From the NCBI GenBank assembly GCA_001938485.1, contig MQRK01208173.1, positions 4,719 through 68,718 on the forward strand: DNA of 64,000 nt. The letters are read 5' to 3'. This DNA comes from Girardia tigrina (lineage: Eukaryota). A program made the position numbers and the translations under genes. Below, piece after piece: positions 2,116 through 63,194 of this stretch (position 1 is its first letter; every line of letters begins with the position of its first letter). The notes under the pieces are model-generated. The model did no database searches and was not told the origin of the DNA. It saw only the letters and a program-made list of their open reading frames with translations.

Positions 2116-4011
2116 TTGCACTTGTTTGGATTTTTCTGAATTGAATAAGGATCTGATAATTACTGCTTTTTATTATTAACGATAATTAATTGCCTAGTTT
2201 ATTGATTGAAATTAATGATTTTTTATTAATCAAGGAAACAAAGTAAAACAAATTATATAAATATATAATTATATATTATAAATTATATAACTATATGCTG
2301 ATTTTAATATAAATAAATATAATTATCGGCACAGTATTCATCATCCACAATCCTGTAACTTTTGAGAGAAGTCATTAAACAGTTATATTAATCATATTTG
2401 TTTCCTATTTGACAGAATATTCTTTTCGTTATTGATTCATAACTGATTCATGATATTTATATTACATAATATATTCATATTAATAAACATTTAATATTAT
2501 TAATAAATTAATTTTGATTTTTTATTGTAAAACGAAATAAATTGTTTAAACCTCTAAACACATCACAGTTTTACTCCACAGTCTGGCAGTCGAGAAATAA
2601 CCAGACCAAAGTTCACGAATGTAAACTCAAGTGCTGCCACCTTAATCAACTTCATCTAATTATGATTACATTTTTAATTGATTGTATGAAAAACAATATT
2701 CATTTTTCTTATTCTACAAAGTTCTAAAATTTAATTGTGAGATACTTACCTTTCCTTATTTGTTTTCCATAATATTCTATTTCTATTTATTTTAATTTGT
2801 ATTCTTTTTTTCTCATTCCATTTTACTGTAAACGTTTACTATTTATTTACTAATTATAAATATGAGGGGTTAGTTTTAAGTTTCGCCAAAATAGTTTATT
2901 GTTTTTTTTTTAATTTGAAAATTTATAAATAATTATAAATTAATTTGAAAATTAATAAATACTTATTTAAAATATTTTTATAGTAATAATAATTAACATA
3001 TTTTAATAAAAGTTATAGAATAAGCTAAATAAATTTTAATTAACGGATTAATATTTTCAGAAATAATTTTTTTAATAAAATGTATTGTAAAGTTTCGTAA
3101 GAATGTAAAAAATTTGGTTACATTAAAAATTTATAAATTTTTTGTAAGAAAATGTAAATTATTTAAGGGTAAAATTTTTGTAAAAATATAAGATTATATA
3201 TTCTTTGTAAAAAAATATAAGATTAATTAAGATTTAATATTGTAAAATTTTTGTAAAAAAATGTAAGATTATTTTAGATTTAAATTTTTGTATATTTTCA
3301 AAATTTAATCGAAAAAATTAATGAACTAATTTTGGGCGAAATAATTGAATTAATAAGAAATTTGTTTAAGTATATGAATCGTGAATATGAATAAATTTTT
3401 GTGGTGTTAAATTATGGCTTTAGAATGTGATAATACTGAAAGTGGCATAAACGCTACTTACAATAAATATATATTTTTAATGTTAATTCAGAAATAAAAC
3501 ATTTTTATTCGTCTCATAAGAGAAATAGTCCACCTAGATTGAATAAATAATTATAAACCAAATCATAAAGTGCTGTCCCTCTTGTAATTATAATTTGCTG
3601 TAAGAAACCAAAACCCAAACATAACAAGCTAAACGACAATGTTACAACTACATTTTCACCAACACATGATCACACAAATAACAACAAATTTTAACTCCTA
3701 TTTTATATATTTATTTTTCAAAATCTTACCTTTTATATTCGTTAAGTTATTAATATAAAGTTATTATTTTGTTTTAATTTATTATACACTTTCTCAGATC
3801 ACCCAATCATTTGTTATGATTTATCGAAAATATTATTTAATTGTTTAAGTTTATTTTAGCTACGTAATTTTGAACAAAACGTAATGTACATGAACGTACC
3901 GTAATGAACGTACGTAATGTACAAAACTTGTACGAAATAAAGATAATTGTGAATAAATTGAAAAAAAAATTGGCAGATTATTAAAATCAAAAATCGAAAG
4001 CCAATTGAAAA

Positions 4012-4053
4012 TATTTATTAATTTCGACGGTTTAAACCGTCATCGTCAGAACA
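4012..4053 (-). ncRNA. Minimal type I hammerhead ribozyme (Penelope pLTR), intact core
   Basis: Minus strand: uguu CUGACGA u GACGG-uuuaaa-CCGUC GAAA uuaa UA aaua. Palindromic stem III (AUUAAU) and 4-bp stem I. Confidence 0.8.
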
Positions 4054-4646
4054 AATGATTTTTCAAACGAAATTTACTTATATAGTGCAGTTAATGATTA
4101 TGTAATCAATACGTAATCAGGACATCATTTAAAAACTCTCAACAAAGTTGTAGAGAATGCAGTTTGAACGTTTATTTTAGGATCCAAAGATCTTATATAT
4201 AACGCTTCACATGTCACTCTCTCCCAATAATTTTTAAATTGAGGCAATAAATCTCCAACGCCATTTGGATTGTGTTCGGATCTCATTTACCAATATACAT
4301 GTAATGGGTGTAACGCCACATACATCGGAGAGACTTCACGTCATCTCTGTAAGAGAATCCAGGAACACAGTTGCAATGAAGGTGGAAGTAACATTGCAGG
4401 ACATAGAAGACAATGTAAAGGAGATGTAACTTCACAACACTTTAAAATTCTGTGCACTCAATTTAAAAATTATTGGGAGAGAGTGACATGTGAAGCGTTA
4501 TATATTAGATCTTTGGATCCTAAAATTAACGTTCAAACTGCACTCTCTATAACTTTGTTGAGAGTTTTTAAATGATGTTCTGATGACGTATTGATTGCAT
4601 AACCATTAATTGCACTATATAAGTAAATTTCGTTTGAAAAATCATT

Positions 4647-4687
4647 TGTTCTGACAATGACGGTTCAACCGTCGAAATTAATAAATA
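4647..4687 (+). ncRNA. Hammerhead ribozyme copy with G8->A core mutation
   Basis: tgtt CTGACAA t GACGG-ttcaa-CCGTC GAAA ttaa TA aata, the inverted partner of 4012-4053. Confidence 0.65.
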
Positions 4688-6952: not shown

Positions 6953-8439
6953 TTAATGTTTTTTTATTAGTTTTGTTTTTTTACTTACATGCAGTTTTTG
7001 GGTAAGTTTTTGGTGGGAGCGGCTCAAGGCATAGCTCTCCATACGGTGCTGATACCAAGGTGCTGACAGGTCTTAAGATAAATGTCAAGATTTATGGTTA
7101 GGTGTCACTACAATTACATAGTAATGAATATAGTTCACAGAGTTCGGAAATGAAAAACAATTCAAAGAACACAAACAAATAATCAAAATACCATATTCTG
7201 AAAGATTTAAAGCAAGAACAATAGTACAAGAACATCGGTAGTTTCAAAGTTATTTCAATGACATCCAAAGCTCAAAGTTTCCTCTCAAATAAATCGAAAA
7301 TGTTTTATGGATTGCAAGATTATTTAGTTCACAAATTTATTTTTTCTCGTCGCGTGTGTAAATTGTCGTTATTTTTAATGGAAATTAATCGTCTTTTACA
7401 GATAAAAGTATTAAAAATGACTTAAAAGAAATTAGAAAAGTATTTTCTACAGTTTTTTATATCTCTTCTTTGCTTTTTCAAGTGTGTAAATATTTTATTT
7501 TATTGAAAACTCCTGAATAAATATCCAACAAAATTATTATCTCTTGTTCTAAGACAGTAATTAGATTATTCATTGGCTTAATGTTGGTACATTTCTTTTT
7601 GCAGATTTGGAATGATTATTTTTATTTGCAGTGTTCATTAATAGAAGGAAAATAAATGATTTTCAGTTGAAGGAATTTTATTATGATAAAATAAATAAAT
7701 AAATAAAATTCTGTTACTGGATATTTGGGAAGGTTTCCTTTTCCCCAAAAAATAATTTTACATTTTATAATATCTTTATCGTTTTATGATTATTTCGTTT
7801 TTTTTGTCAAATTATTTTTAGTTTTTATTTATATTAAATATTATTTAAAATCCGAAAATAAATGAAGTTTTCTCAAAGTATTAAACGTTATTTTTATTTT
7901 ATTTCGTTCTTGAAAATGATATCAGGACTAACAAATGTAGTAATTGTTTTTAACCATTTGTGCATGCAGACTATGTGAGAACATTGATTCTAGAATTACG
8001 AGATCTTATTACACATGTTATGCCACCAAAAGTTTAATAACTTTTGTCTAACATTCTTTTTTGAGTTATTTTAATGCTATTTAATTTGTAGGGGATCTGA
8101 TTTTTAATTTTTTTAATCAATAATATATAATATTATAGACGAAAAAATTGTTTTCACGTCTATCTACTACTTGCAATTGTAAGTAGACTATGATATATAT
8201 ATATATACTAGCCAAATTCATATGTATTCTGACACGTAAAATAATTCTTTTTTTATATTTGTATTATAGATGAATTAATTTGATATTTTACGATAATCTA
8301 AATACAATTTTAAAATAATTTGAAGAAATCAAATAAAAAAGTTAACTAATAAAAATTTTATTCGTATTTAAAAATTTGTTCTCAAATTCAAAAGAATTCG
8401 GACATCTGCTTTTCAATTCAAAAGAATACGGACACCTAC

Positions 8440-9453
8440 TATTTAAAATTTTGTAACATCGCCCTTTGCTTTTATGACATCTTCCATTCTTCTATTCATT
8501 AAATTGTATAAATCCTGACATTTATCAATGGGAAAACTATTTCATATTGCTAAAATTTTATTATTCAAATCAATTTTATTTTTAAGACGTTTTTTTTTCG
8601 TAAAATCTTTTTCATAATTACCCAAACATTCTCTATGGGACTTAAATCTGGGTTTCCTGAATGCCATGTCCAGAAGAACATATTATTTTTCATCATCCGA
8701 GTTTTTTTAAATTTAGAAGTATGACAAGATGCTCCATCTTGTTGAAAAATGAAATCTCCATTGTCAAAATACTGCGTAATAGATGGGATGAGACTTTCCC
8801 TTAATATCTCGGTATACTTTGTAGAGTCCATTGTGCTCTCCATAAAGTGAAGACTGCCAAGTCCTTTGCTTGTCATACAACCCCAAATCATTACACTTTC
8901 TGGAAATTTCAGAGTTCGGTTTAAACAGTCCGATAATAATGACTCGGTACTAAGTCTTAAGATCGATTTTCCATTTTTGTCCATAGACAATTCAAAACAA
9001 GATTCGTTTGAAAAAATAACTTTATTCCAATCATTTTGGCTCCATTTACTATGATTAAGACCCCATTCAAGTCTCTTTTTTTTAATAGGTGACAGAAACG
9101 GTTTGTTTTTAGCCTTAAATAAGTGTTACGCCATGCTTATATTTCATTAAGAAAATCTTACCTTGTAGAATGAATAATTTAATTCATGTATTCGACGTAA
9201 ATAAGTGGACGGAGAAAAAGAAATGCCTGTTTATATACTCCATTTCTCGTTGATTTCTTGAACGACGATATTTGGGAATTAACCTCTTCAAACACCGGCT
9301 ATCAGTAGCGGAAGTCAACTTTGGTGGTCCAGATTTCTTGGGCGATAAGTTATTCTGACGGTATTTAACTTTTTTAATGTTATCGAACACCGTCGATTTA
9401 ATTATCTCTAAACGTTTTAAAATTTCCTTTACTGATTTTCCTTTAACATACAT
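8440..9453 (-). mobile_element. Decayed Tc1 (DD34E) transposase containing a 48-nt intron
   Basis: Paired-like HTH at 9184-9453. WNKVIFSNES (first D mutated to N), SVMIWGC, and FQQDGASCH...PDLSPIEN with 34 residues between D and E. Confidence 0.9.
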
Positions 9454-10565: not shown

Positions 10566-11891
10566 ATTAACTCACAAATTTATTAAAGAAGATGATACAC
10601 GTATTTAAAAAAAATTCTTGGTAATTTAATCATTTCATCAAAATCCATTTATTAATTTTTTTTATTTAATTTAAAAATTTAAATTATAATTTTTAAATTG
10701 TAAATTTTTTTTTATAAAATTTAATTTCTTTATAAATTATAAAATTATAAAATTTTATTTATACTAAACTTTAATTTCTTTCAAAATTATTTCATAGAAA
10801 TATTATAAATTTTACCCCAATTATTAATTATTTTAAAATTTTTATTTAAATACTTTTAATGAACGGGGTAAAATGTATAATATTTTTAAGAAATAATTTT
10901 TGAACTTCGAAAGTCATTTAAACCATTTTCAAGTTACCTATATTCTTACAAATAGTCTTCTTAAATGATTTTAATCCTTCAGAATATGATATTTCGATTA
11001 TTTGTTTGTTCTCTTCTATGTGTTATTTCCTTTAGAACTTTCTTAACTCATGTTTGTGTACATAATTTGTCAAATGTAACCTTTAAATTGTGATCTATTT
11101 GTTTGTTTGGTAATTGTTTTCCCCTTAGCGTCTTTTAGGAATATTTAAATCATTTTCTGTGATTTAAAAATAAGAAAGGAAGTTCCAAATTGAGGAATTC
11201 TTTTGTTTATTATCCTTTATATCCAATAAAATCCTGAAAAAATGTTTTATTTACTGATTAAATCTCGCATTTATTAACATTTTATTGTTTGAAACATTAA
11301 ATTTAAATTGCTGATGATAGAAAATGAAATTCCGAATTATGTAAAATATGTGTATGTGTGTGTGTTTGTTTGGTGAAAGCGTCACAGCGTTGTTTACAAA
11401 ACGTTTTGTGATAAAATAGGACATAAAAGTACAAATATTATTACACAATATAATGCCCATTACTTCAATCAATTTAGTCCACCTTTAATGTAGCTTCAGT
11501 ATTACTGATTCATAAAATCTCTTGTTAAAAATATGTCTCTCAACACTGAATCAACTAAATTCATTCAATTCCGAATTTTAAGAAAACACGATTAATTCGA
11601 AAGTATACTTTTGTCATTTTTCTTATATTTCTGAAACGTATGATACATATTTTCCTTCATTTTAAGCAAGTTACGTACATTAAAAATGATTTGCGACGTT
11701 TCGTTGGAGTGACGTCGACTTGGTGAAACGATTTCTTTTCTCTTTGAAAAGTAAGATAAAGTTTATTTTGTGTGATTATCTATTAATAAAACATAATTTA
11801 CCGTATAAATTTATTAAAAATACAATATTATTGTCATTTGTTTAACAATTGATGGAAATAAATAAAATCATAAGAGAATGTGTTGAAATAT

Positions 11892-12314
11892 CTATACAAA
11901 ACTTGTTTGGTTACTTCGAATAGTGGAATGAGATTGCCTATCGTTTAGTGATACCAAATTGATTTGTGATGTCGATGAAGGTTTTGTGTTTGAAAGGGTT
12001 TCATTAAAACTGGTTTGGTTATTATTTGTTAACAATGGGGCTTTGACAGGTGCTGTTCGAATGATGCTATCATAATGGTCCAGTCTGTTGCATTTACTTT
12101 TCAGAGCTTGATATGTTTCATCAGGTTTATCAATCACTTGATACTTTGTGTATCTATCAAGAGGACTCATATAATCTTCTTTTAGACTAAACTCCATTTC
12201 TCCCGGATATTTGATGTTGCAAGGAGAATTGAGAGACTTATTCGACGGCATCATATGCATTCCTTCATAATAATTAATCGGAGAAGAGGTCATAATGTCA
12301 TTGAAGGATGAGGC
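11892..12314 (-). CDS. Protocadherin terminal exon: cytoplasmic tail ending TSFV*
   Basis: Acceptor tttttgtttcag|GCC (phase 0). Ser/Pro/Asn-rich open frame of 140 aa ending in a class I PDZ-binding-type motif (S-x-V). Same strand as exons 1 and 2. Confidence 0.75.
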   Translation of the reverse strand, partial: ASSFNDIMTSSPINYYEGMHMMPSNKSLNSPCNIKYPGEMEFSLKEDYMSPLDRYTKYQVIDKPDETYQALKSKCNRLDHYDSIIRTAPVKAPLLTNNNQTSFNETLSNTKPSSTSQINLVSLNDRQSHSTIRSNQTSFV

Positions 12315-16870: not shown

Positions 16871-17796
16871 CGTTGTGATCTTTTCACAAAAAAAGAGAGA
16901 GACGGACAAATGGCCTTTGCGAACAGATCGAAATCATATCTGCTAGACGTCGTTTGTTTTAGATGCAGTTTCTTTTAATCTCACCATTTTGACTTCGCAG
17001 TTTTGACCCCGTTTCTTTTGAACTCGCTTTGTTTTGACAATAAATGATAATGTAAAAATTTGATCAAACTAGTATATCAAAAAAATATTTTTGCAAAAAA
17101 ACGTTTTACGATTATCCACAAATATTTACACTGAATTAAATAGAATGTTTTTGGGTTTTTTCCTACCATGCTTTATATTAATAGTTAACTATCTAATTGC
17201 AAAATTGAGTTATAAAAGTTTTTTGTATGAAATTTTCTCTTCTGCAAAAGATTTAAATAGTTACTAATAACTATTTAAATTTATTAAAAAATGTAACAAA
17301 AGATAACAAAAATATTCTGTTGGTCAAGCTAAGTTCTACCCTTATAAAGAATGGACATAAAAATGTTTTTTGATGTATTAGTTGTAGTAACAGCTTCTGA
17401 TAGACTTTTAAAGGGTTCATCTCTAAAAACCCTCCAAGATCGGCTCTTAAAAGTTCCAACCTTTTCCTATAGAATCTAAATTTCATGGAGTGTAACGACT
17501 TCATTAAAATATTATATAAGACAACCTTGAAAGAAGTTGACTGCCATAGTCAACTCCGAGTTGTTTGTTAGTGTCACCCTGCTCATGTGAAATTCTAACA
17601 TTTTCCAAATACCGCTTACCCATCTTAACTAAATTTAACCAGTTTCATGAAAAATTACCGAAATTTACGACCAATAAGAAAATCAATAACTTTCATGATT
17701 TTGCTTTGCTTTATATGAATAAAATATTTTAGATGTCAATATTGCGTCTTGTGAACGATAGTTTAATATTATTGATAAATAATTTAATCTAAGAAT

Positions 17797-17840
17797 CTTA
17801 AAACATGTTTCGATGTTTAATTAAATCATCATCGGCAATT
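17797..17840 (-). ncRNA. Degenerate hammerhead (same family as 22348-22389), probably heading a Penelope 5' relic (~17230-17840)
   Basis: Minus strand: aauug CCGAUGA u GAU...AUC GAAA caug UU. Core U4->C, weak stem I. Confidence 0.55.
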
Positions 17841-18349
17841 ATAAAATTTTTACTAACTATAAAATTAAATGATAAAAAATGGTAATACGATTAAATAAAA
17901 GTAAATATTATTGATTAATAATGGCCAGCAGCACTGTCACTCGTAACGTAAATCTATATTGATAAAACTCTACAACCCCTCACAATTAACATTCAAAATT
18001 TTCTAAGCCAAGCCGCGTCTTCACAATTGACCCTACTTAGCCGAAGTTCTAGAAAGAAAGTTAAAATTATAATTCTAGTCGATCTTTCAATAAAAAAAAC
18101 CCGTTAGACATCAACATCCCTGTGGTGCTCGAATATTAAACATTTTAAATTTTGTTTTAATAAGCGACTTTAAGTGGGAAATTCAAGAATCGGAAATTTT
18201 TGTGAAATTAATGGATTACTTATTTATTATCTAACGTATTGCAATATTTCTTTCAATGGGAAAAATTTCTTTCGACTGTCTTTGGTAAAACCCTTTGGAT
18301 CTTGTATTGTTTTCGTAAACACTTTAAAATTTTTATCGATTGACTGACT

Positions 18350-19195: not shown

Positions 19196-20559
19196 TCACA
19201 CAACTCCTACATTTTCTTGTGATTATTCTACTTTTCTTTTTATACTTTCTGTTTGGGATTGTAGTTTAAAATATTTATTTAAAGTTATCTTATTTAATTG
19301 CGCAATTTATTAATAATATTTATAAAAAGTAAATAATTACCTCAAGATCATTTTTCTGAATAATGCAGTTGCGGTCGAGCATCGCTTGTGAGTCGCTTTG
19401 ATTATTTTTTTCCAGAACACATGAGTCTGAATATATATTTCAATTAAAGATAAGAGACAATATAATTAATATTACATTAATAAAATTGTATTAAAACATA
19501 TATAAAAAAAATATTAATCCATAATGCATGAACAAACTGCTTTATATGTTGCATGGTAAGAGCGAATTAAAATAAGTGGTACATCTTGTTAAAGAGGAAA
19601 GGGAGAATTAATTTAAAACGAATTTTTAACTCAAATAAAAGAAAAAAATAAGTGAAATTAATGTTTATTTTATTTCATGAAAGATGAAACAAATTATCAT
19701 TGAAAATATTTACTATTAATTAAATAATAATTATTATTATTTTTTATTAAATTAATGATCACTTTAGTTTTATACACTTGTTATACACTTTTTTATCCCG
19801 AATTTTATATTATTTATTGAAACATGTATAGTATCAAAAATAATAAAATAAATCAATAAAATAAAATAATATAAAGGTAAGAATTTTTAATTTTTAAACT
19901 AAATCCAAAATAGTAGAATAAAAGAGAAATAAAAATTAACTACTTTTTCTTTGTAAAAAATAAATAATATTATAATAATCCACAGTTTATGGTATCTAAA
20001 TTCATGGAGTTATTTGTCAAAATTCGTCTAAATCTATATAATTTTGTAGTAGTAACATACAAAAATATTATAGTTTATGGTAACATTTTAATTCCAATAG
20101 CTTCTTTTAATTTGACTTTCTATTCATTTAAACTTTGTTGATTATCAATTATATAAAAATATATTTCTATAAAATTTATAACTAAAAAATTCAAAAATAA
20201 AAGAATAGAAAAATTGAAATAATTAATTAATTTGGAGTACTAATTGGATAAATTATAGTAAAAATAAAATATAATTACATAGTTTATAAATTAGAAAAGT
20301 AAAATAATATTAATAATAATTAACAAGTATTATTAATGAAACTTCTGCTTTAATTTTTAAATCGTAATTTTTATAATTTATTATTTGTTGTTTCGAATTC
20401 TGTGTTGATTTAACAGTCTGTTAAATAAGTCGGCTCCCGGAGCCTTTCTGTGAAGGCGCTGTACAGACAGCCGTCTCGATGCGGACTATGCAGGTTTACC
20501 TCAACTTTACGCGGATTCACTCCCTGTGCCTCATTTTTTCGCATTTTATCTGCATATAT

Positions 20560-21490
20560 ATGATCATAGTAAAGTTTTAGCTTGAAAGTAAAGTTTTATG
20601 GGAGGATAATAAAGCACTATATTACTGAAAACCTTATTAGTATTGTGTACTGGAACATTGTCTAGCAATAGTAAAATTTTTCGATTTTCATTTTTTCATT
20701 AAGATCATGTAACCCAACGGTCAAAAATTTCATAGGTCATCTAAGAAGTTTTGTAATTCTGGTATTTTAAGCTCATCTTAGAAAAGTCGAGGTTTTTAAA
20801 TCCTCTGGGAGATTTAAATTTCCCTATTAATAGCGGGGGCTCTTTTTCACCCGTTTCATTTGAGCAAAAAAGAAGTGTTACTCTTTCTTTAGAGAATTTT
20901 CCACCAGCATTTTCTTCGCTTCTTAAAATAAGTGTCTTTTTTGAAGGACACTTAAAGAACAACCTTGTTTCGTCACAATTAAATACGTCACAGTTAGTAT
21001 ATTTATTATAAAGGTTTTCAAATTCTGCCCATGATTCACATAAAACCAAAAGGTTTACCAAATCTCCTTCGCCAAAATAAATTGTTTTTGTTTCATATGA
21101 TCTTTGAAATTTCGATATCAATGTACTGGAAGCTTTAAAGTTTCCCATTTCCAATTTTTTGGCAATTTTTAATGCCATCTCCTCCAACATTAAGTTTGTT
21201 ATTGTGTTGTTCAACTTTCTCTTCCTTGATATCCAATCGTAGAGATGCGGATATATTTCGTATGTCTTTATATTTGAAACAATATTGCCTGCAATTTCCT
21301 TTTCATTCTCTGATTTATACTTCTCCAGGTTGTTAACAATTTCGTTTACCGTTCCAGCTGACATCTTAACTTTATTGACAAGAGATGTCTGAGTTACAAA
21401 TTTATTTTCCAGTTTAAAATTTGCCGCGGCCTGTTTTTCTGCAATTAAATATCTTCTTCTTTTTGGTTTTCTGTTAATTACCATGAGCAT
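20560..21490 (-). mobile_element. Tigger/pogo (CENP-B-like) transposase pseudogene
   Basis: 249-aa ORF with LYDWI...ALKIA...FKASS, VFNCDETRLFFK and SKERVTLLFCSN...PLLIGK. Continues past the stop as RKILLLLDNVPVH. Confidence 0.9.
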
Positions 21491-22347
21491 TTTTTAATCT
21501 AAAATAATTTAAATGTAAAAAAAGTCAAAAAGTTTTATACTTAAATAAAGTCAAAATTTTCAAAAAATGTTCAAAATTTTACAATATTAAAACAAAATAA
21601 ATAATAGAAAAGCAATGTAATATATAAATATATACTTTATGATCAGTGAATATTTAAAAATTACTAAAGTAATTTCTTATTTTAAGAATTTTGCTCGTTC
21701 ATTATCAAAAAAATTATTATCTTGAAAATTTCCCTCATTTCCTAATGAAACAGTCAGTAGACTCTCATTATATATATATATATATATATATATAAGCATA
21801 TGTTTTACTATCATTTTTGATTATATTAATTATTTTTTATGGAAAAATGAATTATGAAAAATTTTATGCAAATTACGAAAATAGATTAAAAATATCATAT
21901 AAAAATGAAAAAATGCAATAAAATAAAAATAAAATTTAATAAAATATTTTATAAATTAAAACTTCAGTACATATTTGTCTTTAGAAAAGTAAAATAATAA
22001 TAAATAACTATTATTATTAATGAAATAAGCCAAAATTTTTATTATCATTTTTGCTTACATATATTATATTTTTATTGAAAAATGCATTACGAAATTATTT
22101 ATGCAAATTATGAAAATAGATTAAACATATAATGGAAAAATGAGAAAATAAAAATGTTTTTATTATTAATAATTAATGCAACATGTATTTGTTGGTTTAT
22201 TTTCTTTTAAAATTACTGTTTTATCGTAGTAAAAAAGTGTATGGATAAAATAAATTCATCTTGAAAAAAACATTCAGAGATTAAGATATATATATATATA
22301 TATATATTTCGAAAATATAATTTGATCAAAGCTTTTTTAATACAACT

Positions 22348-22389
22348 ATTGGACATGTTTCGATTTTTAAAAAAATCATCATCAGCAAT
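22348..22389 (-). ncRNA. Intact minimal type I hammerhead ribozyme, sense to the protocadherin pre-mRNA
   Basis: auug CUGAUGA u GAUUUU-uuua-AAAAUC GAAA caug UC caau. Canonical core, GUC cleavage triplet, palindromic ACAUGU stem III, 4-bp stem I. Confidence 0.85.
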
Positions 22390-22402
22390 TTTCTATTGAA
22401 TT

Positions 22403-23258
22403 NNNNNNNNNNNNNNNNNNNNNNNNNNNNNNNNNNNNNNNNNNNNNNNNNNNNNNNNNNNNNNNNNNNNNNNNNNNNNNNNNNNNNNNNNNNNNNNNNN
22501 NNNNNNNNNNNNNNNNNNNNNNNNNNNNNNNNNNNNNNNNNNNNNNNNNNNNNNNNNNNNNNNNNNNNNNNNNNNNNNNNNNNNNNNNNNNNNNNNNNNN
22601 NNNNNNNNNNNNNNNNNNNNNNNNNNNNNNNNNNNNNNNNNNNNNNNNNNNNNNNNNNNNNNNNNNNNNNNNNNNNNNNNNNNNNNNNNNNNNNNNNNNN
22701 NNNNNNNNNNNNNNNNNNNNNNNNNNNNNNNNNNNNNNNNNNNNNNNNNNNNNNNNNNNNNNNNNNNNNNNNNNNNNNNNNNNNNNNNNNNNNNNNNNNN
22801 NNNNNNNNNNNNNNNNNNNNNNNNNNNNNNNNNNNNNNNNNNNNNNNNNNNNNNNNNNNNNNNNNNNNNNNNNNNNNNNNNNNNNNNNNNNNNNNNNNNN
22901 NNNNNNNNNNNNNNNNNNNNNNNNNNNNNNNNNNNNNNNNNNNNNNNNNNNNNNNNNNNNNNNNNNNNNNNNNNNNNNNNNNNNNNNNNNNNNNNNNNNN
23001 NNNNNNNNNNNNNNNNNNNNNNNNNNNNNNNNNNNNNNNNNNNNNNNNNNNNNNNNNNNNNNNNNNNNNNNNNNNNNNNNNNNNNNNNNNNNNNNNNNNN
23101 NNNNNNNNNNNNNNNNNNNNNNNNNNNNNNNNNNNNNNNNNNNNNNNNNNNNNNNNNNNNNNNNNNNNNNNNNNNNNNNNNNNNNNNNNNNNNNNNNNNN
23201 NNNNNNNNNNNNNNNNNNNNNNNNNNNNNNNNNNNNNNNNNNNNNNNNNNNNNNNNNT
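22403..23258. other. Assembly gap (others at 27697-27912 and 32369-32728)
   Basis: Runs of N. Confidence 1.
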
Positions 23259-23353
23259 TTTTTAAAAATCGAAACATGTCCAATAGTTGTATTAAAAAAG
23301 CTTTGATCAAATTATATTTTCGAAATACTAAACTTGCGTTCACAAGACTCAAT

Positions 23354-23374
23354 AATATATATATATATATATAT

Positions 23375-23499: not shown

Positions 23500-24250
23500 A
23501 CAAATCTCAGCGAATATAAAGATAAACTCCAAGATTTTTTAGCAAAACGAATGAATCTTAAAGGAGATAAATTAACATAGTCTAAATATGCTGGCAGTGA
23601 TAAAAAAACTGAAATGCTCATATAAGCTGTTATACATATATCTACATCAAAAAAGGTATATATAATAGGTGCGATGTGGTTAAAACCTTGTATGAAGGAT
23701 ATATGCGATAAAATAATTGGAACAGACTTTGGAACAAATTGTTTTAGATTACTTACGAATAGACTAGACAAAGTATAAAAAATTGGAAAGGAAATTATCA
23801 GAGAAAAAAAGCAAAATAATTGTTTCAGGAAGCCGTAACAACGAGGTTAATCTGGAGGTCGACATTGAAGGGGGGGAAGCAGGAACAAGTTATGAGTTTT
23901 AAATACATAGGCTCCACTATCATTGAGAATTGAAGAATGAAAGTAGAAATTTGAGACAGGATTGGAAGAGAGAACAAATGACTTTGTCTGGAAGAGAGTG
24001 TCAGAATCACTAGGTGAAAGACATGAATCAGTAAGAGTCATGTAAAGAGGAGGAAGATGGACTTCTTTGGACCTTAGATAACAAAAGTAGGTCTAGTAAA
24101 GGAAGGAGGCAGACCAAATAGACGATGGACAGATAATCTAAAAGAATGGAGTTGATTGAATATGGATGGTCTGAGAAGAGAGACTACAAATAGAGAGATG
24201 TGTCGAAGGCTTGTGTACAATTGGGTGCGCCGATAGCCCAACGCCTAATT
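23500..24250 (+). mobile_element. RTE-clade LINE 3' relic
   Basis: EQVMSFKYIGSTI...EIxDRIGR and GGRPNRRWTDNLKEW motifs. Its 3' end recurs inverted at ~25950-26035. Confidence 0.75.
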
Positions 24251-24708: not shown

Positions 24709-24931
24709 CGTGATTGGCATTGAACCTTTCGCATTTCTTTATGGTGATAATCAACACCATTAGGATCACCATGATGAACAAGCCAGCTAAGGACGCCAGA
24801 ATAATGATCATGGTTATTTGCCGGATGTCGTCTTTCGCTTGATCGGGTCGGTGGATTTTGCTGCTCGGCGGTTGGTTTTTCGAGTTACCCATACCGTTTG
24901 GATCATTTTTGAAAATAATTGTAAAGGTTTC
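24709..24931 (-). CDS. Protocadherin exon 2: end of EC7, juxtamembrane region and transmembrane helix
   Basis: Acceptor ttattttag|GAA (phase 0) joins exon 1 as SMQAE|ETFTIIFKNDPNG. TM helix ITMIIILASLAGLFIMVILMVLIITI is followed by KK. Donor G|GTAAGA is phase 1. Confidence 0.88.
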
Positions 24932-26035: not shown

Positions 26036-27469
26036 AAAGTTTTTATTTGTATCTAAATTAATAATGTTTGAGTTAATTTACAAAATATTATTTACGTTTT
26101 CTGTACGACAGTCAAACGCTCGAATTGTTACTTATTTTTGCTCAATTGGAACAGTTTACTCTCTTTACCGTTGCAATGACGACGACTCAAGAGGTATAGC
26201 TGAAAAACATTCAGGATGAAGGCAGTTCTTCATTCTAGTTTTTTTCTTCTTTCAAAACTTTTTTTTTCTTTTTCATTCCTTGATCCCGATTCTCGTGGTG
26301 GATAGGTTCAGTTTATGCGAAATCTATTGTTTGATTTATATGAAAACAAGCTTTGTTAAAATACTACTTAGCGGTAAGATAAATGATATTGTTCCAAGAA
26401 AATCAAGAGGCTAGCTGTTAATGCAGAAGAAATGGATTTTGAACTTTTATATGATACTGTGAATAAGAATCTGTGTTGAAAGGAAAAAAGAAAACTTTAA
26501 TAATTATGAACACATGTACTTCTTTTGGAGGATGTGCTAGGCACCACTCTCATCTAAGATCATTTCCTTTAGAAACAGTTATCTAGTCAGAAAATGTTTA
26601 TCAAGAGGATGTGTATCACGAATGCTTATAAAAAGAATAGAAATTGTGCTTAAAAATCGACAATATTTATATTCTCTAATTATTAACAGAGGAAGTTTAT
26701 CAGATTCATCTATAGTACCGAAATGATCGCATTACTTGAATACATACGTAAGTGTTTCATCTGTTTCGGCTTAAAGTGTTTCATGAATTCATTTGCTTTT
26801 TTCGCATCATAATAACCTTGACTATAATGATAGATACTTTTAGTACCATGGATTTCAGGATTTATTTGCATCATCGAAATCGAGTCAGTAGTAAGATTTT
26901 CTTGCTTAGGTTTGCTAGTAATTGAACCTGTTTATCTGTGTAGTGACCCAAAATTAAATATTATTATTTATAAAAATATTTATATATTAAAATTCTATAT
27001 TATTATTTAAAAAAACATGATTATAGAATTATCATCGGTTTTAATGACAAATGATATTTTATGATAACAATTGGTTTGTCCGGATCACTTTTTATTTGGT
27101 AAAAAAATTAAAATTCAAAAATAAATTTTCTTCTTGATCGTATTTTCTTTTATAATGAAATTAAACTCTGGAATTATCCGTTGAGTCATCTCTAACACTA
27201 TAATCTGCTTTATACAAATCTTTCAATATTTGTGTCGTTACATCATATTCCATTTGCAATGTAAACTTGTTTCACATTTGTGTTTTCCTCAGTGAAGTTT
27301 ATAATTTCTAACATTTGTACAAAAAATTTATGAACGCGCAGTCTCTTGCTGGGAGATACATGTTGCTATAAGGTTATTCAAAAACAATTTTAAAAATGTA
27401 AGAAATATTATAAAATATTTATTAAAATAACAAAAGGAAAATTAATAAGTTTTTTTCAGGTAGGTATTA

Positions 27470-28165
27470 TTTAATAGTTCATAATAAATTACACCCTTCT
27501 GGTCCCACCAAACGCAGAGCATTGTCTTTCTGCCAAAGCGATTTGGTCTGACTGTCGATGTGGATGGCGTACCCGGTTCTACCCATGATCTTTATCGTTT
27601 AGGATTATCAAAATAAATCCACTTTTCGTCCCCAGTAACGATGCGATGGAAAAATGACTTCTTTTTGTATCGTGCAAGCAAGATTTCACAAGTGGTNNNN
27701 NNNNNNNNNNNNNNNNNNNNNNNNNNNNNNNNNNNNNNNNNNNNNNNNNNNNNNNNNNNNNNNNNNNNNNNNNNNNNNNNNNNNNNNNNNNNNNNNNNNN
27801 NNNNNNNNNNNNNNNNNNNNNNNNNNNNNNNNNNNNNNNNNNNNNNNNNNNNNNNNNNNNNNNNNNNNNNNNNNNNNNNNNNNNNNNNNNNNNNNNNNNN
27901 NNNNNNNNNNNNTATCTTGCGATGGGGCATATTCACCATAAGCTTCTTGGAGTAATCGGTATGATTCAGCAGCAGTTTTCTTTAGATGTTAACAAAAAAT
28001 TAGTACCGTCCGCGAATGCTCCCTGCTTGGCATAAATTTGGACATCTAAAACACAGCTTGTTGTGTTATAAAAAAAATCCCTTTTGGAATTAGTTTTCTT
28101 TGTCAGGCCGGGTACATATTGAATGCATCCTGCATAACATACCATTTTGGTCTTGAGTACACATC
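27470..28165 (-). mobile_element. Truncated mariner (mauritiana/Mos1-like), spanning gap 27697-27912
   Basis: MSKFMPSREHSRTVLIFCxHLKKTAAESYRLL and HRIVTGDEKWIYFDNPKR...TMLCVWWDQKGVIYYELL. Confidence 0.88.
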
Positions 28166-29462
28166 ATTAAAAGCAAATGTCTGTTGTAAAAATTTTATAA
28201 AAATAAGAATTTTCTCATGTATTTTAATAAAAAGGTACAAAACCCAAAACATTTTTGAAGGAACGACTACCTATCTAAACCGGCTTCGTATCGATCGAAA
28301 CCGATTGTAAAAAAATAATTTAATAAACATTTATAAAGTATATTTAAATTAATTATAAAACTGTGCAATCAATCCATCCTGCTTCCTTATTTGATTTTAC
28401 GGATGTATTTTTATTTTCAGATTAAAAAAACAAAATATTCATAAATAAAAAACTTGAAAATTTTTTAATTTTGCAAACCAAAAACTTCAATATTAAAATA
28501 AAAAGGAAAATATTTAAAATTTTTCAAGGAAACAAATATAAATAAATTTTATTTATTCCTTTTATAACTAAATAAGTTTGGGTATTTTGTTTTAATTAAT
28601 TATCCAAATAATGTTACACTCGGATCACAATTCCGACCTAACCTAAATTTTAATAAAATTAAGCTTCTTTTCCTTTAATTATTACAAATTTTAATTAATT
28701 AATCTAAAATAAATATTGTAGCAAAAGACATGAGCTGTGTATAGAGCATAATAAAGGGAATCATTACATTATATTAGGAAATTTTGTGTTAATTAGACTG
28801 AATTTAATTAATACAGAAACAAATATCAAAAGAAATCTTTGTTAAAATGAGAATATTTTCTATAACTTTCAGATTGATGATCTTTTTTTAGGTATTTCAT
28901 AAGTTGTCTTAAGAAAATAATATTTAATAAATAATATTTCTAGAATTAATATTCTAAATAATTACAAAAAAGTTCGCGGACTTTTAATAAAGTAATAACA
29001 AATTCAAAAAGTTTAAAAAATATTCCTCACACCCGCAAAGGAATTCGGAATTTCCACAGAAATATTTTACATAATTATACAAACAAACTTAAAAGGTTGT
29101 AAAAATGTTATTCGTCAGAATTCACATTCTTTTTGAAAATCCTGATAACTAAAAGTAAAAGTTTACAAATGTAGTGGCTGCATATAACTCTATTCCTGAA
29201 AAAAATGTAATTGACATAAAAATGAGCAAAATCATTTCTTTTAAAGCCTTTAAAGCAGTGTCGGGCAACCTTTATAACACATTTTATGCCTAACATCTTG
29301 GGAGAGCGTCTCTCCGAATATTTTCCCGTCTATCTCCCGGCGGTTGAATTTCTTAACTTTACAATTCGAACTCTCGGCGACTTTGATTGATTTTTGACAG
29401 ACACTGATCGGTTCAATTTCAAATCCGACTATTGTGTATTTTCCATTTTCGTCATTTTTATT

Positions 29463-29897
29463 TTAGGTGAATCCAAGACGAAATCCGTGCTCGTATTGAG
29501 TGACTTGTCCGATTGTGTAGCCAGTCACCACAGGAAGATTGTCCACCAGCAGATTAACGGAATGTGAGTTCTCGATCTGCTTGTGGAATTGCCCGACTCC
29601 GACTTGCTAAGAGTGATGGCATCACATACGATCTAGCAAACGGTCTTCTCGAGCATCTTGATCCGATAGGGCGTGTTCACAATGCGCTCCCCGTGCAAGA
29701 TCTCGCCCAGATTCTCCGACGAGTACATGAGGCCTTCTTTCGACTTGCAGAATCGAAGCGAATAATACGCGTACGACAATTTTGTCTTTAGACTCATCAA
29801 TTTTACCGCCTTGACGTCAACGTTATCACCTTCCGCGAATTGGACGGGAAAAACGCCCGGATGTCATCAGAAACAAGAGAAAGAGAACGGGAATCAT
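29463..29897 (-). pseudogene. TM9SF4/TM9SF2-like (nonaspanin/EMP70) 5' gene fragment
   Basis: MIPVLFLLFLMTS / PGVFPVQFAEGDNVDVKAVKLMSLKTKLSYAYYSLRFC / SENLGEILHGERIVNTPY / NLLVDNLPV...QYEHGFRLGFT. Matches TM9SF hallmark motifs; 3 frameshifts and 1 internal stop. Confidence 0.9.
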
Positions 29898-33370: not shown

Positions 33371-35599
33371 ATTATTACTATTAATATTATTATTTAGTTT
33401 AAAATCTAAAGTTATATAAAGAAATAATTTAAAACTTCTTTCAATTTGAAGCTGAAAAAGGTATTATAACTAACTAATAATTTAAGAAAATAACTATAAT
33501 TCTGAAGCGCAAATTATAATTATTAATGTTATGGAATATATTTTTTACTATTCAACAAATGTATTTTTATTTGATTAGAAGAACCTGAAAAAAGTTTTTT
33601 TTGTTTTATATATAATTAAATATTTTAAAAAAAATTTAATATATTTTCTTTATATATTTTTTTTAAAAATTAATTACGGATATTTTTTTATTGTTATTCA
33701 ATAAAGATATTAATAAATCCATAAATATCACTTAGTATTTATTACATGTTACTTCAAAGTTTTATATTTAAATATTATTTAATAATATACAAAGTCATTT
33801 AATACAAAATTTAAACTATGGATAAATAAATGGAGTGTTTATTTATACAAAGTTTTTTGACGTGGGACAATTTATTTTTACTTCTTAAATTCCAACCATA
33901 ATTCAAAGGATTCTTGTCATATCCTTCTTGGAAACAATATGTTTTACCTTCTCGAACATCATCATTAAATACTTTTATTGTTATTTTTAGTTTTATAATA
34001 ACTGATTATTTAATAAATCTCTTCGATGTTATTTGAGTTAGCTTAAGTAAATAATCCATTTTATCTCTTCGTTTCACCATTTTACTTATTTATGATATTT
34101 AAATAAATATTTATCCAGAATCGTTCGTGACATTCTGAAATATGATCGTCGAGTCTTTGGATAATATTCAGTTTTCGTCACAACCAAATCTTAATTCTCC
34201 ATTGTAACAAATACAAAATATAAATAAAATGTGATAACAATTTTTAATTTAAAAGAAGATTTTTTTATGGAATTCTACTAATAGAAGAAAGATATTATAT
34301 TTTTTTATTTTGTTATCATATTATTATCATTATTATTATTTATAGTTTTATATTTTTAATTAATTAAGTTTTTATTTACGTCCTCACTTGATTCAAGAAA
34401 AATTTTTGAAAGTTTTTAAATTTGTACCAAAACATAAATTTTAAAACAAATTTTAAATTCTTAATCTTTGTCAAACTAATAATTAATAGTAATATCAAAA
34501 ATAATAATTTATTTTATTAAGTATAAAATAAATTTTGTTTCTGCTGTGACCAGGTAAAATAATTTATTTTTAATTTATTTCACTATTAATAAGGTCGTTG
34601 CTCAAATATGTATCCAAAAACGTATCTACATATGTATCTATTTGAATCTATATGTATCTTTATATTTGAATCCAAAGTTTGTGAGCATATCGACTCATTT
34701 TTGTAAATTTCTTGATAACAAATTATGAAGTCAATTCCACTTCAAGCAGCTTTGAAACTTTTGAAGTTTTCACAATCATCAAAGAAAAAATTATATTTCT
34801 TTAGATATAAATTAAATTACTTTAGGAACACTATTGACAAATTCTTGCTTTGATTTAACACTCAATCCTCAAAAAAGTTTTTCCAAAAAAATCTTTTAAA
34901 TATTCTTATTTTAAGTGAAACTTTTATCCTTAAAATATTTTTTAAATTATTTATATATAAATACATATATTTATATATATGTTTATATAATTTGAAATTT
35001 TTAGAATAGATATTTGTTAAAGTATTTTTTTGATCACCATCTTCGATCACTTTTAGAAACTGTGGAAATTTTATTTTAAAAATATTTAATGCTGACGCTA
35101 CTTTACTTTTCAAATGGTTATTGTGTCTTGTTAACAATGATTCACAACCTCTAGATTTGTGAATCCAAATTCTTCTTAAGAATAGAAACCTAATCTTTTC
35201 AAATTAAAGAAGTTCTATCTTTGGAAAATCTGCAGTGATCAAGAACCTTCCTCAATATATTCGACTGTGATTACTAATCTAATCTCAACCAGCTTATACA
35301 GAGTTTTTATTAGCGTGATTTCATTCAAACGATCACACAATCATTATTTTTGCATTTCTATATATAGATTAATCAAATTTTTCATTAATGACCTGAGGAT
35401 GGATGGTTGATCCATCGAAATCTATTGTCTTTAAATACAGTTTTTAATAGATGATTTTTGTTTTTAATAAAAAACTTTTCGATCTGATTGAAGTTTATTC
35501 AGATACAATTTGTCCATCAAATTCGTATAAATTTTTGATGTTCTTAATGTGTATTTAAGATGACCGACAGGTTTACTATGAAAGCATTAGACGGCTTAA

Positions 35600-39200: not shown

Positions 39201-40639
39201 AATTGGCCAAACTTCGTCCCTCATCATAATGTATCACCGTTCTGTATTCATAGTATCGCAAAGGATAAATTGACACACAATTCTATCTTAAGGCATTCCA
39301 CGCCATACCCTTACTTAAGATCAATTTTGGCTGACAAATAGAATAAAAGCCTTAAATTGATTTAAAAATTATAGTTCGGCAAATTGAATTATACTATTAT
39401 CAGTTTGAAATTGAAGTATTTTTAAGAAATTGTTAAGCTTCATCTAAACCTCGAGCCTTTTGCTATGTAAAATTATCAGACATTCAATTAATCTGAGATT
39501 CACGTTGTTTTGATGGTTAAATGTAAGTTTGGGGTTATTGTCCATCAGTATTCTGGAGCTATTATTTAGGCATTGAGAAATTCGAAAGGTTTCTTTAAAG
39601 ATCTTTGAGAACATATTATTTATTTGCCTTTATGGATAAAAAGTTTTTCATCAAACACGATTTATATGACTTTTTTATAAATATTTAAACATAATTTTTG
39701 AAATAATTTGAATAAAATATTGAAAATATAAACAAACTAAATCAAAGTATTTTATCAACCAACGAAAATTCAAAAGAAACTGGACAAAAGTTATCCTGAC
39801 GATAATGGACAAATATCAGTTGAATATCTAATTTACCGACACCGCAAAACGTATACTACGCGGATTACGTCGACCTTTTGAACCCATTTCGAGAAGGACA
39901 AAATGAATCTTAAAGTTTCCTTTTTAAAGTTTAACCAAGCAATTAAAATACGTAATCTTCAAACAATCTCAGACAATACAAAAGAAGAAAAAGGAAAAGT
40001 TAGACTGTTATCTTAAAAAATTGAAAGTACCTAGAAAAGTAAAAACTTTTGCCTATGGTAACTAGTATTAAGCTCTAATTTATCAATCATTTAATAATAC
40101 AAAAAATAATGAAAATCGAAATTTACGATAAAATAATAGTTTTTATATATTAAAGGATTAAATAAATTTTAGAATATTATTAAAATAATTTATTTTTGTA
40201 AATACCCAATGAATGGACAATGGTTTAAGCTGTCTAGACTCTGATCCTGGGTCATCTTCAAAGAAGAGTTTCATTTTACTCAATATTTTTACTCAAATTT
40301 GGAACTTCTCCATTGCTTATTCAATTTGTAATCTTAATTGAGCTTCAAAGTATTTTGAAATACGATATTTCGAATATTTAAGAACAAAATTCTGCTAAAA
40401 TAAGAATGTGATAAGTTCATATGTTGATCAAGATGGAAATTAAAAATAAAATTTAGAATTGGAATGTTTCATTCCGATTTCAATAAATTATGTATTTATA
40501 TTTACATAAAAAAATTAATTACTATTAAAAATTAAAAAGGAAAGAAAAAACTCTAAAATTATTTTAGTTAATGTGAAATGAAAATTATGTTATTTGTTAA
40601 AAAAGAGAAAAAAAACTTTATGAAAAAAAGATTGATAAC

Positions 40640-40800
40640 TAGGGCACGGAATTATATGACCTTAAAAATCAAAGAAGTGACTCTATTTTTTCCTCTTTCA
40701 GGGTGAGATATTATTTTGTTCTTCCCATCTGCCAATAGAGTCGCCACCGTCACCAATCCGCCGCAATCACACCACTGCACCACCCACTCTGTTATCAATG

Positions 40801-40842
<42 letters not shown>

Positions 40843-41005
40843 AATCATTGATAACAGAGTTGGTGGCACAGTGGTGTGACTGCGGCGAATTGGTGACGGT
40901 GGCGACTCTTGACAGAGGGGAAGAACAAAATAATATCTCGCCCTGAAAGAGGAAAAAAATAGAGTCATTTCTTTGATTTTTAAGGTCATATAATTCCGTG
41001 CCCTA
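40640..41005. mobile_element. hAT-type foldback MITE with (ATT)n loop
   Basis: TAGGGCACGG...CCGTGCCCTA termini, ~165-bp inverted arms and a perfect 8-bp TSD TTGATAAC (40632-40639 and 41006-41013). Confidence 0.93.
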
Positions 41006-41493
41006 TTGATAACAAATGAAAACAAAGATATTGATTTTGTCTTAATTAATTATTACAATTATTATATGAAGCAATTGATTTTTTTTCATTGCTAGAAATG
41101 CGTCATAAAGAGTCGAAAAATGAATCTTCTTTTGGCAATAATAAAACGTTTTATAAATCTTCGAAACAAGAAAAATCCAATAAAAGATTGGAAAATTTAG
41201 ATCTCAATCAGAACAATTATGAAACAAATTCCAATTCGAAATTTAAGATCATGAATAAATTCATTCACAAAACATTTCTTTCGAAAAGCAACCACGGTGA
41301 CCACTACGAACTGGTGGACACGCTCACGCAGCACGGATCTTTGCGTCAATACTGTATCAAAGGTAACGAAATAATACTACGGATTAGTCGTTATGGATTA
41401 AATATGAATACAGGCTCGGAACTGTTGAATATTTTTATAAAAGATGTAGAACGATGACATTTTCAGTTGGGCGTGAAAAAGCGTTAGGAAGAG

Positions 41494-52293: not shown

Positions 52294-52904
52294 CATAAAA
52301 GTAACCTAAAGTTCAGATGCGGTGAACCTGAGACTACTTTTATAGGATAGAATAAACGAAATAACAAATCCGGGTGTGGAAATGAAATTTAATTACAAAA
52401 AGAAAAACTAAAACGAATAACACATATAAGTCAATAACCGGATAATAATTTTCTTTGTTTTTTTAACTTAAAAGATGACGTCGGACTTGAATAATATTAT
52501 TCACCGTTTATTGAGATTGTCTGGATTGTTTTTTTGGAGCATTATTGCGTAAGGAAATTCTTCTAATAAAAAAGAAAATGATAGAGAACTTTAAACAGTA
52601 AATGATTTGGAATTTGGGAAAAGTTGTTGTCGATGCAAATTCCTTTCTAATTCGTTATTAACTGATAAAAAATTGGTTTTCTTTTTTTACTGGTTGGATA
52701 TTGTGTGATTTCATTGATAGAAAGGTTGGCTGCTTGTGGTTTTGGTTGGATAATGTGTGAGTTGATGGATAGAAAGGTTGCCTGCAAGTGGTTTCTAAGT
52801 AAACTCCTCTCAAATTATTTTTTTAATTTGTAAATCAATATTTATTATTGATTTAATTATTAAATTATTATTTCCACAAAAAAAACTATTAATATACTTT
52901 TACA
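52294..52904. mobile_element. Probable solo LTR nested in the mariner
   Basis: 5-bp TSD AATCC (52289-52293 and 52905-52909). Short inverted termini (ca)taaaagta / tacttttaca. Removing it restores KLNES-IKHKRPELVNRK in frame. Confidence 0.75.
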
Positions 52905-62648: not shown

Positions 62649-63194
62649 TATAGGTTTTTGCATCATTTGACCAGAAACAACAATTGAATTGCCGTTTCCC
62701 ACATTCAATTTACCTAAAACGTAAATTGATTTAATTATTTAAAAAATTTAAAACCTGATGTGCACATTTGCGATTAATCAGGTATATGGATTGATGCATA
62801 GCCGAATAAAGGTGGAACGAGTTACAAAGGAAGCTTTTGGGGAATTTATTAAGGACTTAATTACAGCTACAAAAGATATATTCCCTCATGATCATACTAT
62901 ATATTTAGTATATTTAGATAATGCACGTCCTCATCTTGACGCCCAACTAAAAATACTTATGGAGTATATTAACCAGTATACGATTAAATATCTGCCACCT
63001 TACCTTTCTTAAACCCAGTTGACCAATATCACTCAACCTTTAAATCAAGAGTGAAAAGTTCTTTGTCAGAAGAACAAGTAAATCTTGATAATTAAATTTT
63101 TAAATAATTAAATCAATTTACGTTTTAGGTAAATTGAATGTGGGAAACGGCAATTCAATTGTTGTTTCTGGTCAAATGAATGCAAAAACCTATA
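62649..63194 (+). mobile_element. IS630/Tc1-like transposase fragment enclosed by a ~100-bp near-perfect inverted repeat
   Basis: YLDNARPH...IKYLPPY(fs)LNPV. 62649-62750 is the reverse complement of 63093-63194. Confidence 0.75.

What the first reader, a model, noticed from the sequence alone, without database searches (positions are those of the whole stretch)
22348..22389. Intact hammerhead ribozyme in the sense strand of the protocadherin intron, with a matching potential dimer partner 4.5 kb downstream
Seen: a canonical core (CUGAUGA/GAAA/GUC) on the minus strand between exons 2 and 3. A decayed copy with the same palindromic ACAUGU stem III lies on the same strand at 17797-17840. Known: Penelope pLTR minimal hammerheads have an almost absent stem III and cleave efficiently as dimers. 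Inference: both copies are co-transcribed in one pre-mRNA and could pair in cis. Cleavage between the TM exon and the tail exons could alter splicing, termination or tail-less isoform output.
Basis: partly seen in the sequence, partly recalled or inferred. Interest (0 to 1): 0.75.

Follow-up and report, generated by a model that had tools for sequence, protein, structure and literature searches.

The report
Penelope hammerhead in a protocadherin intron
This self-cutting RNA motif in a protocadherin intron is real, but it is one of about 900 identical copies carried on the end of a known kind of jumping gene (Penelope), its proposed partner is broken and lies in a different intron, and it likely does not cut the host gene's RNA.

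Summary
The motif is there as described: a type I minimal hammerhead at 22348-22389 (-), on the sense strand of protocadherin intron 2. It is the terminal repeat (pLTR) of a young Penelope-like retrotransposon. Its 40-nt motif occurs 893 times exactly in the genome and 4,708 times when stem II may vary. Sister copies run into an ORF whose pieces encode reverse transcriptase and GIY-YIG endonuclease. Here it is one arm of a head-to-head insertion in (TA)n, with the typical tail and its middle lost in an assembly gap. The cis-dimer idea is poorly supported. The partner lies in intron 3, beyond coding exon 3; it has U4C and C17U and has lost stem I. A same-strand neighbour this close is expected for about 127 copies by chance. 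The inverted arm would be transcribed first and can form a perfect 70-bp duplex over the cleavage site. RNA-derived contigs from 4 of 4 runs splice exon 2 to exon 3 with no read-through. Published minimal PLE hammerheads cleave poorly even as dimers. Cleavage itself was not tested. The scan noted similar PLE remnants in other genomes before.

The parts
22348..22389 (-). Type I minimal hammerhead (core 22385-22352; predicted cut 22352/22351; palindromic ACAUGU stem III; extra U before stem II)
   Evidence: 893 exact copies of the 40-nt motif
22354..22356 (-). ATG inside the palindrome; in sister copies the first Met of the Penelope ORF, so the predicted cut falls 5 nt into the ORF
   Evidence: (298-aa frame from this ATG in L058; frames of 66-192 aa in L061, L063, L068, L071, L072)
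22305..22402 (-). Sense-strand pLTR arm without tail, ending in (TA)n
   Evidence: 40 of 40 scored candidates 100% identical over 98 nt, self included; 26 of 30 fetched copies followed by 2 or more TA
22403..23257 (.). Assembly gap (855 N, an estimated size) holding the unassembled middle of the insertion
   Evidence: the same gap-flanked arrangement at L007 and L009
23258..23354 (+). Inverted pLTR arm (70 nt, 100% complementary to 22305-22374) plus a 27-nt tail (23328-23354), then (TA)n; antisense in the pre-mRNA and transcribed before the ribozyme
   Evidence: (I9); duplex -96.4 kcal/mol
17738..17856 (-). Older, decayed pLTR of the same family in intron 3 (hammerhead 17797-17840: U4C, C17U, stem II mismatch, stem I 3' strand lost)
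   Evidence: among 40 scored of 242 candidates the best near-full-length match elsewhere is 79%; about 70% to young copies
17948..17999 (+). Short inverted piece of the Penelope endonuclease end belonging to the decayed insertion
   Evidence: blastn 81% over 52 nt to the EN region of L050
46816..49254 (-). Protocadherin exon 1 (cadherin repeats)
   Evidence: Pfam Cadherin E 4e-53; joint to exon 2 in the loose ends
24709..24931 (-). Protocadherin exon 2 (transmembrane)
   Evidence: covered with both splice joints in 4 of 4 runs
19341..19426 (-). Protocadherin exon 3 (86 nt), lying between the two hammerhead copies
   Evidence: 5' end from the loose end, mapped uniquely; 3' end from GT donor and phase (inferred)
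11892..12314 (-). Inferred last coding exon 4; the four exons give one open 1,056-aa frame
   Evidence: phase, AG acceptor, contig length fits an end near 11776; the exon 3-4 joint was not seen directly

Best explanation
The motif is the hammerhead that a young, high-copy Penelope-like retrotransposon carries in its terminal repeat, left in protocadherin intron 2 by one head-to-head insertion into a (TA)n run, and it is likely inert there. Shown: identity to hundreds of dispersed copies; linkage of the motif to an ORF start and of family pieces to RT and GIY-YIG; inverted arms with a one-sided tail; the gene model; exon 2-3 splicing in RNA-derived contigs. Inferred from published PLE work: the ribozyme serves the element, working as a dimer through the ACAUGU palindrome in tandem transcripts, probably with help from the element's protein, and cutting 5 nt after the ORF start codon. 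Predicted for this locus: the antisense arm is made about 0.9 kb earlier and pairs over 70 bp with the 3' part of stem II, GAAA, stem III, the cut site and stem I, so the active fold does not form and the intron is spliced out whole. The copy at 17.8 kb is an independent, older insertion of the same family that happens to lie nearby.
For: 893 exact, 4,708 strict and 6,334 loose pattern hits; reversed controls 0. The motif runs on into the ORF in sister copies, including 8 of the window's own stem II type. RT: RVT_1 E 7.6e-10 and 5.5e-12. GIY-YIG: E 3e-6 and 5e-6 in L060 and L063, directly upstream of such pLTRs. Head-to-head arms in 7 other loci among the 112 scanned, 6 of them gap-free, plus L007 and L028 seen by eye. 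Tail in 6 of 30 copies. Inverted pLTR plus one-sided 30-40-bp tail, and short-read assembly breaks, are described for PLEs (PMC3846280 and PMC8557442, passages). Antisense duplex -96.4 kcal/mol against -5.3 for the monomer fold; heterodimer active fold +0.8 against -8.0 for a homodimer. Exon 2 joined to exon 3 in 4 of 4 runs, depth 0 in the bin just inside intron 2.
Against: No cleavage assay was done, and no reads were laid over the ribozyme itself. The middle of the insertion is in a gap and could hold a second sense-strand hammerhead (partial tandem), a far better cis partner. The inverted arm is known only from this assembly. Contigs drop rare isoforms, and the sequenced animals may not carry this young insertion. 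Nearest-neighbour energies do not model hammerhead tertiary contacts or protein help. The EN piece of the subfamily closest to the window copy scored only weakly for GIY-YIG (E 0.059, below cut-off). Stem covariation rests on one G-C/U-A event.
Confidence: 0.88

Rival explanations
1. The intact copy does cut some protocadherin pre-mRNA, but with an intact partner: a second copy hidden in the gap, another nascent transcript, or any of thousands of family transcripts, helped by the Penelope protein. This would be a side effect of a recent insertion.
For: Core, stem I and stem II are intact and identical to the youngest subfamily. The homodimer's active fold is favourable (-8.0 kcal/mol). Protein-assisted cleavage is reported for a PLE hammerhead (PMC11167929). 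Retrozymes are under-represented in Xenopus introns (10.64898/2026.07.22.740005, passage), which fits a cost.
Against: A 70-bp antisense duplex covers the site. The homodimer MFE (-18.0) is a different, inactive fold. No read ends were found at the site for the Anolis element. Spliced exon 2-3 contigs in 4 of 4 runs.
Confidence: 0.08
2. One reading: the intact and decayed copies pair in cis through ACAUGU in one pre-mRNA, and cleavage regulates splicing, termination or a tail-less isoform.
For: Same strand, same palindrome, both inside one transcription unit. The decayed copy's 5' strand can still make a 4-bp stem I with the intact cleavage strand.
Against: The copies are in different introns with exon 3 between them. 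The partner has U4C and a 3-bp stem II, and its own cleavage strand makes only 1 bp of stem I. Heterodimer active fold +0.8 kcal/mol against -9.3 for the two monomers; the palindrome duplex alone is -4.6; ACATGT occurs 13 times in the pre-mRNA. A same-strand neighbour within 4.55 kb has p about 0.02 per copy, about 127 cases genome-wide under uniform placement. The partner's changes are not those of a conserved subfamily: CCGAUGA in 2 of 72 extracted motifs, itself included.
Confidence: 0.015
3. The inverted arm is a scaffolding artefact and the locus holds a solo pLTR, inert because a lone minimal hammerhead does not cleave.
For: Both arms abut an N gap, and many family copies lie at contig ends.
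Against: The arms differ (a tail on one only), and the same layout is assembled without gaps in 6 other loci.
Confidence: 0.025

Closest known systems
Minimal type I hammerheads of metazoan Penelope-like elements (Cervera and De la Pena 2014, PMC4209133; parts 1-2 of 4 read)
   Same: Type I topology, stem I of 4 bp, long stem II with G10.1-C11.1, an extra nucleotide between A9 and stem II, palindromic 15.2-16.2/loop 3, location in pLTRs, thousands of dispersed copies, pairs on opposite strands 100-700 bp apart.
   Different: A new family in another host. Stem III carries a 2-nt loop, as in the D. virilis-type variants the paper describes. Very low divergence (893 identical copies), like the actively invading D. 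virilis case.
EN+ PLE insertion unit with inverted pLTR and tail (Adineta Pen2a, PMC3846280; PMC8557442; passages)
   Same: Head-to-head pLTRs, a tail on one end, a pLTR holding the first codons of the ORF, short-read assembly breakage.
   Different: The tail is 27 nt rather than 30-40. No target-site duplication is readable because both ends merge into (TA)n. The middle is unassembled.
Poseidon_Ac of Anolis (PMC11167929; parts 1-2 of 4 read)
   Same: The hammerhead overlaps the ORF start with the cut downstream of the AUG; two 3' ends define the tail; AT-rich targets.
   Different: Here the first in-frame AUG lies inside the stem III palindrome, 5 nt before the cut, not at stem II 26 nt before it.
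Intronic host ribozymes, e.g. the CPEB3 HDV-like ribozyme (PMC10919898, abstract only) and amniote intronic hammerheads (PMC6765202, passage)
   Same: A self-cleaving motif on the sense strand of an intron, a few kb upstream of the next exon.
   Different: The CPEB3 ribozyme has measured activity tuned to splicing (abstract); that such ribozymes are single-copy, conserved and monomer-active is recalled. This one is a young repeat copy that needs a partner and has an antisense arm beside it.

Membership tests
PLE minimal type I hammerhead | Conserved core CUGANGA / GAAA / UH | tested here: met
PLE minimal type I hammerhead | Stem I 4-5 bp, long stem II, extra nucleotide before stem II, G10.1-C11.1 | tested here: met
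   4 bp and 6 bp; 93.8% of cells paired in 22 distinct variants against 17-41% when slid, one compensatory pair (the variants were picked by motif, so the test leans towards the structure)
PLE minimal type I hammerhead | Palindromic minimal stem III | tested here: met
   ACATGT in 72 of 72 extracted motifs (extraction allowed 2 mismatches around it)
PLE minimal type I hammerhead | Self-cleavage as a dimer | not testable with these tools
   needs an in vitro assay
PLE minimal type I hammerhead | Match to an Rfam hammerhead model | tested here: not met
   no hammerhead family at E<=1; this test is not part of the published min-HHR definition
EN+ Penelope-like element | ORF with PLE-type RT | tested here: met
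   RVT_1 hits; DKG and YVDD motifs visible (their meaning is recalled, DKG also named in PMC8557442); shown in sister copies, not at this locus
EN+ Penelope-like element | C-terminal GIY-YIG endonuclease just before the pLTR | tested here: met
   Pfam GIY-YIG above cut-off in 2 of 3 pieces tested, weak in the third; EN end directly upstream of the window-type pLTR in L012
EN+ Penelope-like element | pLTRs in tandem or inverted arrangement with optional tail | tested here: met
EN+ Penelope-like element | Clade (Penelope/Poseidon, Neptune, Hydra and others) by RT phylogeny | not tested
   no reference sequences fetched
Non-LTR retrozyme | Non-coding tandem monomers, each with a hammerhead | tested here: not met
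   copies are pLTR ends joined to ORF pieces, and this locus is head-to-head, not tandem; gap content unknown
Domesticated intronic ribozyme (CPEB3-like role) | Single-copy and conserved at the orthologous site | tested here: not met
   893 identical copies; cross-species conservation itself could not be tested (no relatives' genomes held)

The most novel reading that the evidence does not exclude
With about 900 identical and 4,700 near-identical dimer-dependent hammerheads spread through the genome, Penelope transcripts or protein could act in trans to cut host pre-mRNAs that carry a sense-strand copy. Transposon activity would then switch genes such as this protocadherin off, or truncate them after the transmembrane exon, and the head-to-head layout that masks the ribozyme would be what lets sense-strand intronic insertions be tolerated.
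Probability: 0.05. Interest if true: 0.7.

Novelty: new member of a known kind. Interest (0 to 1): 0.15.

Why it matters
As found, it matters little: it is one more copy of a described transposon motif. Its use is as test material. Whether PLE hammerheads ever cut RNA in vivo is open (PMC4209133, PMC11167929, PMC8557442 passages), and this genome holds a very young family with thousands of copies. A strand-bias count in introns, split by solo versus inverted-arm copies, and end-mapping at uniquely flanked loci like this one would address that question. My one search for this angle (Penelope + hammerhead + intron + antisense + host gene) listed one unrelated plant review, and Penelope + hammerhead + planarian listed three papers, none of them on this by title or abstract start; that is not proof that it is unpublished.

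Tried and rejected
Rfam scan: no hammerhead hit. Homolog searches to build the gene model failed: the TM exon against longer proteins found nothing, the tail ORF against 1.84 billion representatives found nothing, and the best relative of exon 1 (73%) covers exon 1 only; RNA contigs solved it instead. Search for an empty-site allele in the assembly: neither flank has a second near-identical copy, so polymorphism is untested. PDB search with the RT piece: no hit at E<=0.01. A third regex hit at 27264-27292 lacks stem pairing by eye and was set aside. No RNA was laid over the ribozyme or the exon 3-4 joint, so nascent coverage at 22351/22352 remains open; depth 0 in intron 2 beside exon 2 in contigs is not evidence of absence. 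Lunse et al. 2017 is not held; I saw only its title in a reference list, and it may report better dimer cleavage than the papers read. No paper on U4C rates was found, so that U4C is damaging is recalled. Supplements were not read; those of PMC4209133 hold the cleavage gels and alignments. The MIR530/MIR834, FTX and snoR41 Rfam hits are below gathering score and were ignored.

Full report
Observation. The 42 nt at 22348-22389 on the minus strand form a type I minimal hammerhead: a 4-bp stem I, CUGAUGA, one extra U, a 6-bp stem II, GAAA, the palindrome ACAUGU and the GUC triplet, with the cut predicted at 22352/22351. A second copy with the same palindrome lies on the same strand at 17797-17840, 4,550 nt downstream. 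Rfam does not report either, and the monomer folds no better than shuffles, as expected for a motif with almost no stem III.

Immediate surroundings. The motif lies just beside an 855-N gap (22403-23257). On the far side, 23258-23327 is a 100% inverted copy of 22305-22374, which runs on for 27 further bases before a (TA)n run; the near arm stops without these bases and also ends in (TA)n. The locus is therefore two diverging arms, one with a tail, inside a TA microsatellite.

It is a young, high-copy repeat end. A genome search with 22305-22402 gave 523 candidates; all 40 scored were 100% identical over 98 nt, the window's own included. Pattern counts over the whole assembly: 893 exact copies of the 40-nt motif, 4,708 with the middle of stem II free, and 6,334 with a looser pattern that also fits the decayed copy; reversed controls gave 0 each time. 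Among 30 fetched copies, 6 carry the tail and 26 are followed by at least two TA units. Head-to-head arms recur in 7 other loci of the 112 scanned, 6 without a gap, and by eye in L007 and L028, so the layout is not a local scaffolding slip.

The repeat is a Penelope-like element. DNA joined to a window-type arm in L006 led to loci with RT frames (RVT_1 E 7.6e-10 and 5.5e-12). Sequence just upstream of the pLTR encodes the end of a GIY-YIG endonuclease (above cut-off in 2 of 3 pieces, weak in the one closest to the window's subfamily). In sister copies the hammerhead runs on through the tail into the ORF, and the ATG inside the palindrome opens a frame of up to 298 aa in the stretch fetched; 8 copies of the window's own stem II type run on in this way. 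Inverted pLTRs with a one-sided tail, a pLTR holding the first codons, and broken short-read assemblies are described for PLEs (PMC3846280 and PMC8557442, passages). PMC11167929 (parts 1-2 read) explains the tail by two RT start sites. Across 22 distinct ungapped variants, drawn by motif from the loci (one search extracted 72 motifs), 93.8% of stem cells pair against 17-41% in slid controls, with one compensatory G-C/U-A change in stem II that separates subfamilies; 9 of 500 shuffles reach the covariation score. This is one event, so it is modest support.

Host gene. Exon 1 encodes cadherin repeats. Contigs from 4 of 4 runs laid (at most three studies; RNA by guess, but they are spliced) cover the TM exon 24709-24931 and leave it at both splice sites. 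The downstream loose end maps uniquely to 19426, the start of an 86-nt exon 3 with a GT donor. Exon 4 from 12314 is inferred: the four exons give an open 1,056-aa frame, and the 3,404-nt contig's remaining length fits an end near 11776. So the intact copy is in intron 2, 2.4 kb after exon 2 and 2.9 kb before exon 3, and the decayed copy is in intron 3 (or past exon 3 in any model). No contig read from exon 2 into intron 2, but contigs drop rare forms and the animals sequenced may lack the insertion. The host is likely a planarian: an earlier scan note on this window says so, and the best named protein hit is from a trematode at 29%; I did not test this further.

The proposed cis partner. In a type I dimer each catalytic junction takes its core and stem II from one copy and its cleavage strand from the other (established topology; PMC4209133 fig. 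1 legend). The decayed copy has CCGAUGA, GUU, a 3-bp stem II and no stem I 3' strand. The intact core would find a 1-bp stem I on it, and the intact site would depend on the damaged core. The drawn active heterodimer scores +0.8 kcal/mol, the homodimer -8.0, the monomers -5.3 and -4.0, the bare palindrome duplex -4.6 (these energies ignore tertiary contacts). The decayed copy has no close relative (best near-full-length match 79% among 40 scored), so it is an old insertion and not a co-adapted partner. At 6,334 copies in 1.43 Gb a same-strand neighbour within 4.55 kb has p about 0.02 per copy, some 127 cases by chance under uniform placement. Taken alone 0.02 is low, but the scan selects such windows and exact patterns undercount decayed copies.

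Likely behaviour. In the pre-mRNA the inverted arm is transcribed first, as antisense, and can pair perfectly over 70 bp with most of stem II, GAAA, stem III, the cut site and the 3' strand of stem I (-96.4 kcal/mol). Published minimal PLE hammerheads show no monomer cleavage and low dimer cleavage (PMC4209133; review passage PMC6765202). The Anolis one needs the element's protein and left no read ends at its site in RNA-seq. I conclude that this copy is most likely inert transposon cargo (0.88). The main open rival is occasional cleavage with an intact partner in the gap or in trans (0.08).

Comparison and verdict. It works like, and by every sequence feature tested is, a PLE minimal hammerhead in an EN+ PLE insertion; cleavage and clade were not tested. 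It is not a tandem retrozyme and not a domesticated intronic ribozyme of the CPEB3 kind (abstract). Earlier scan notes describe comparable remnants in other genomes; I read them after forming my view. New member of a known kind; interest 0.15.

Noticed in passing
L060:513-1022, L063:1872-2258 versus L012, L050: Two clearly different endonuclease C-termini stand upstream of the same hammerhead and ORF start, suggesting recombinant subfamilies or one PLE family inserting at another's pLTR.
   Followed up: partly
window 29253-29863 (-): GC-rich, frame-broken piece of an EMP70/TM9SF gene inside protocadherin intron 1 (Pfam EMP70 E 2e-9 and 7e-5); a pseudogene or transposon-captured fragment.
   Followed up: partly
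   Followed up: no
window 40635-41010: Long fold-back element with an (AAT)n centre in intron 1 (I7, I14, I18); source of the spurious MIR hits.
   Followed up: no
window 2861-3094, 7165-7342, 10947-11170, 35116-35256: Further decayed Penelope ORF fragments, 71-88% identical to the young family.
   Followed up: no
window 8568-9125, 20744-21493, 27445-27981, 51868-52347: Tc1/mariner- and pogo-type transposase remnants (DDE_3, HTH_Tnp_Tc5 with DDE_1, Transposase_1); the one at 20744-21493 shares intron 2 with the hammerhead.
   Followed up: no
window 24139-24228: Short repeat with very high contig depth in all four runs laid, about 500 nt into intron 2.
   Followed up: no
window 4032-4668, 62663-63179: Two further inverted-repeat elements with arms of 212 and 86 nt at 95-99% complementarity.
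   Followed up: no
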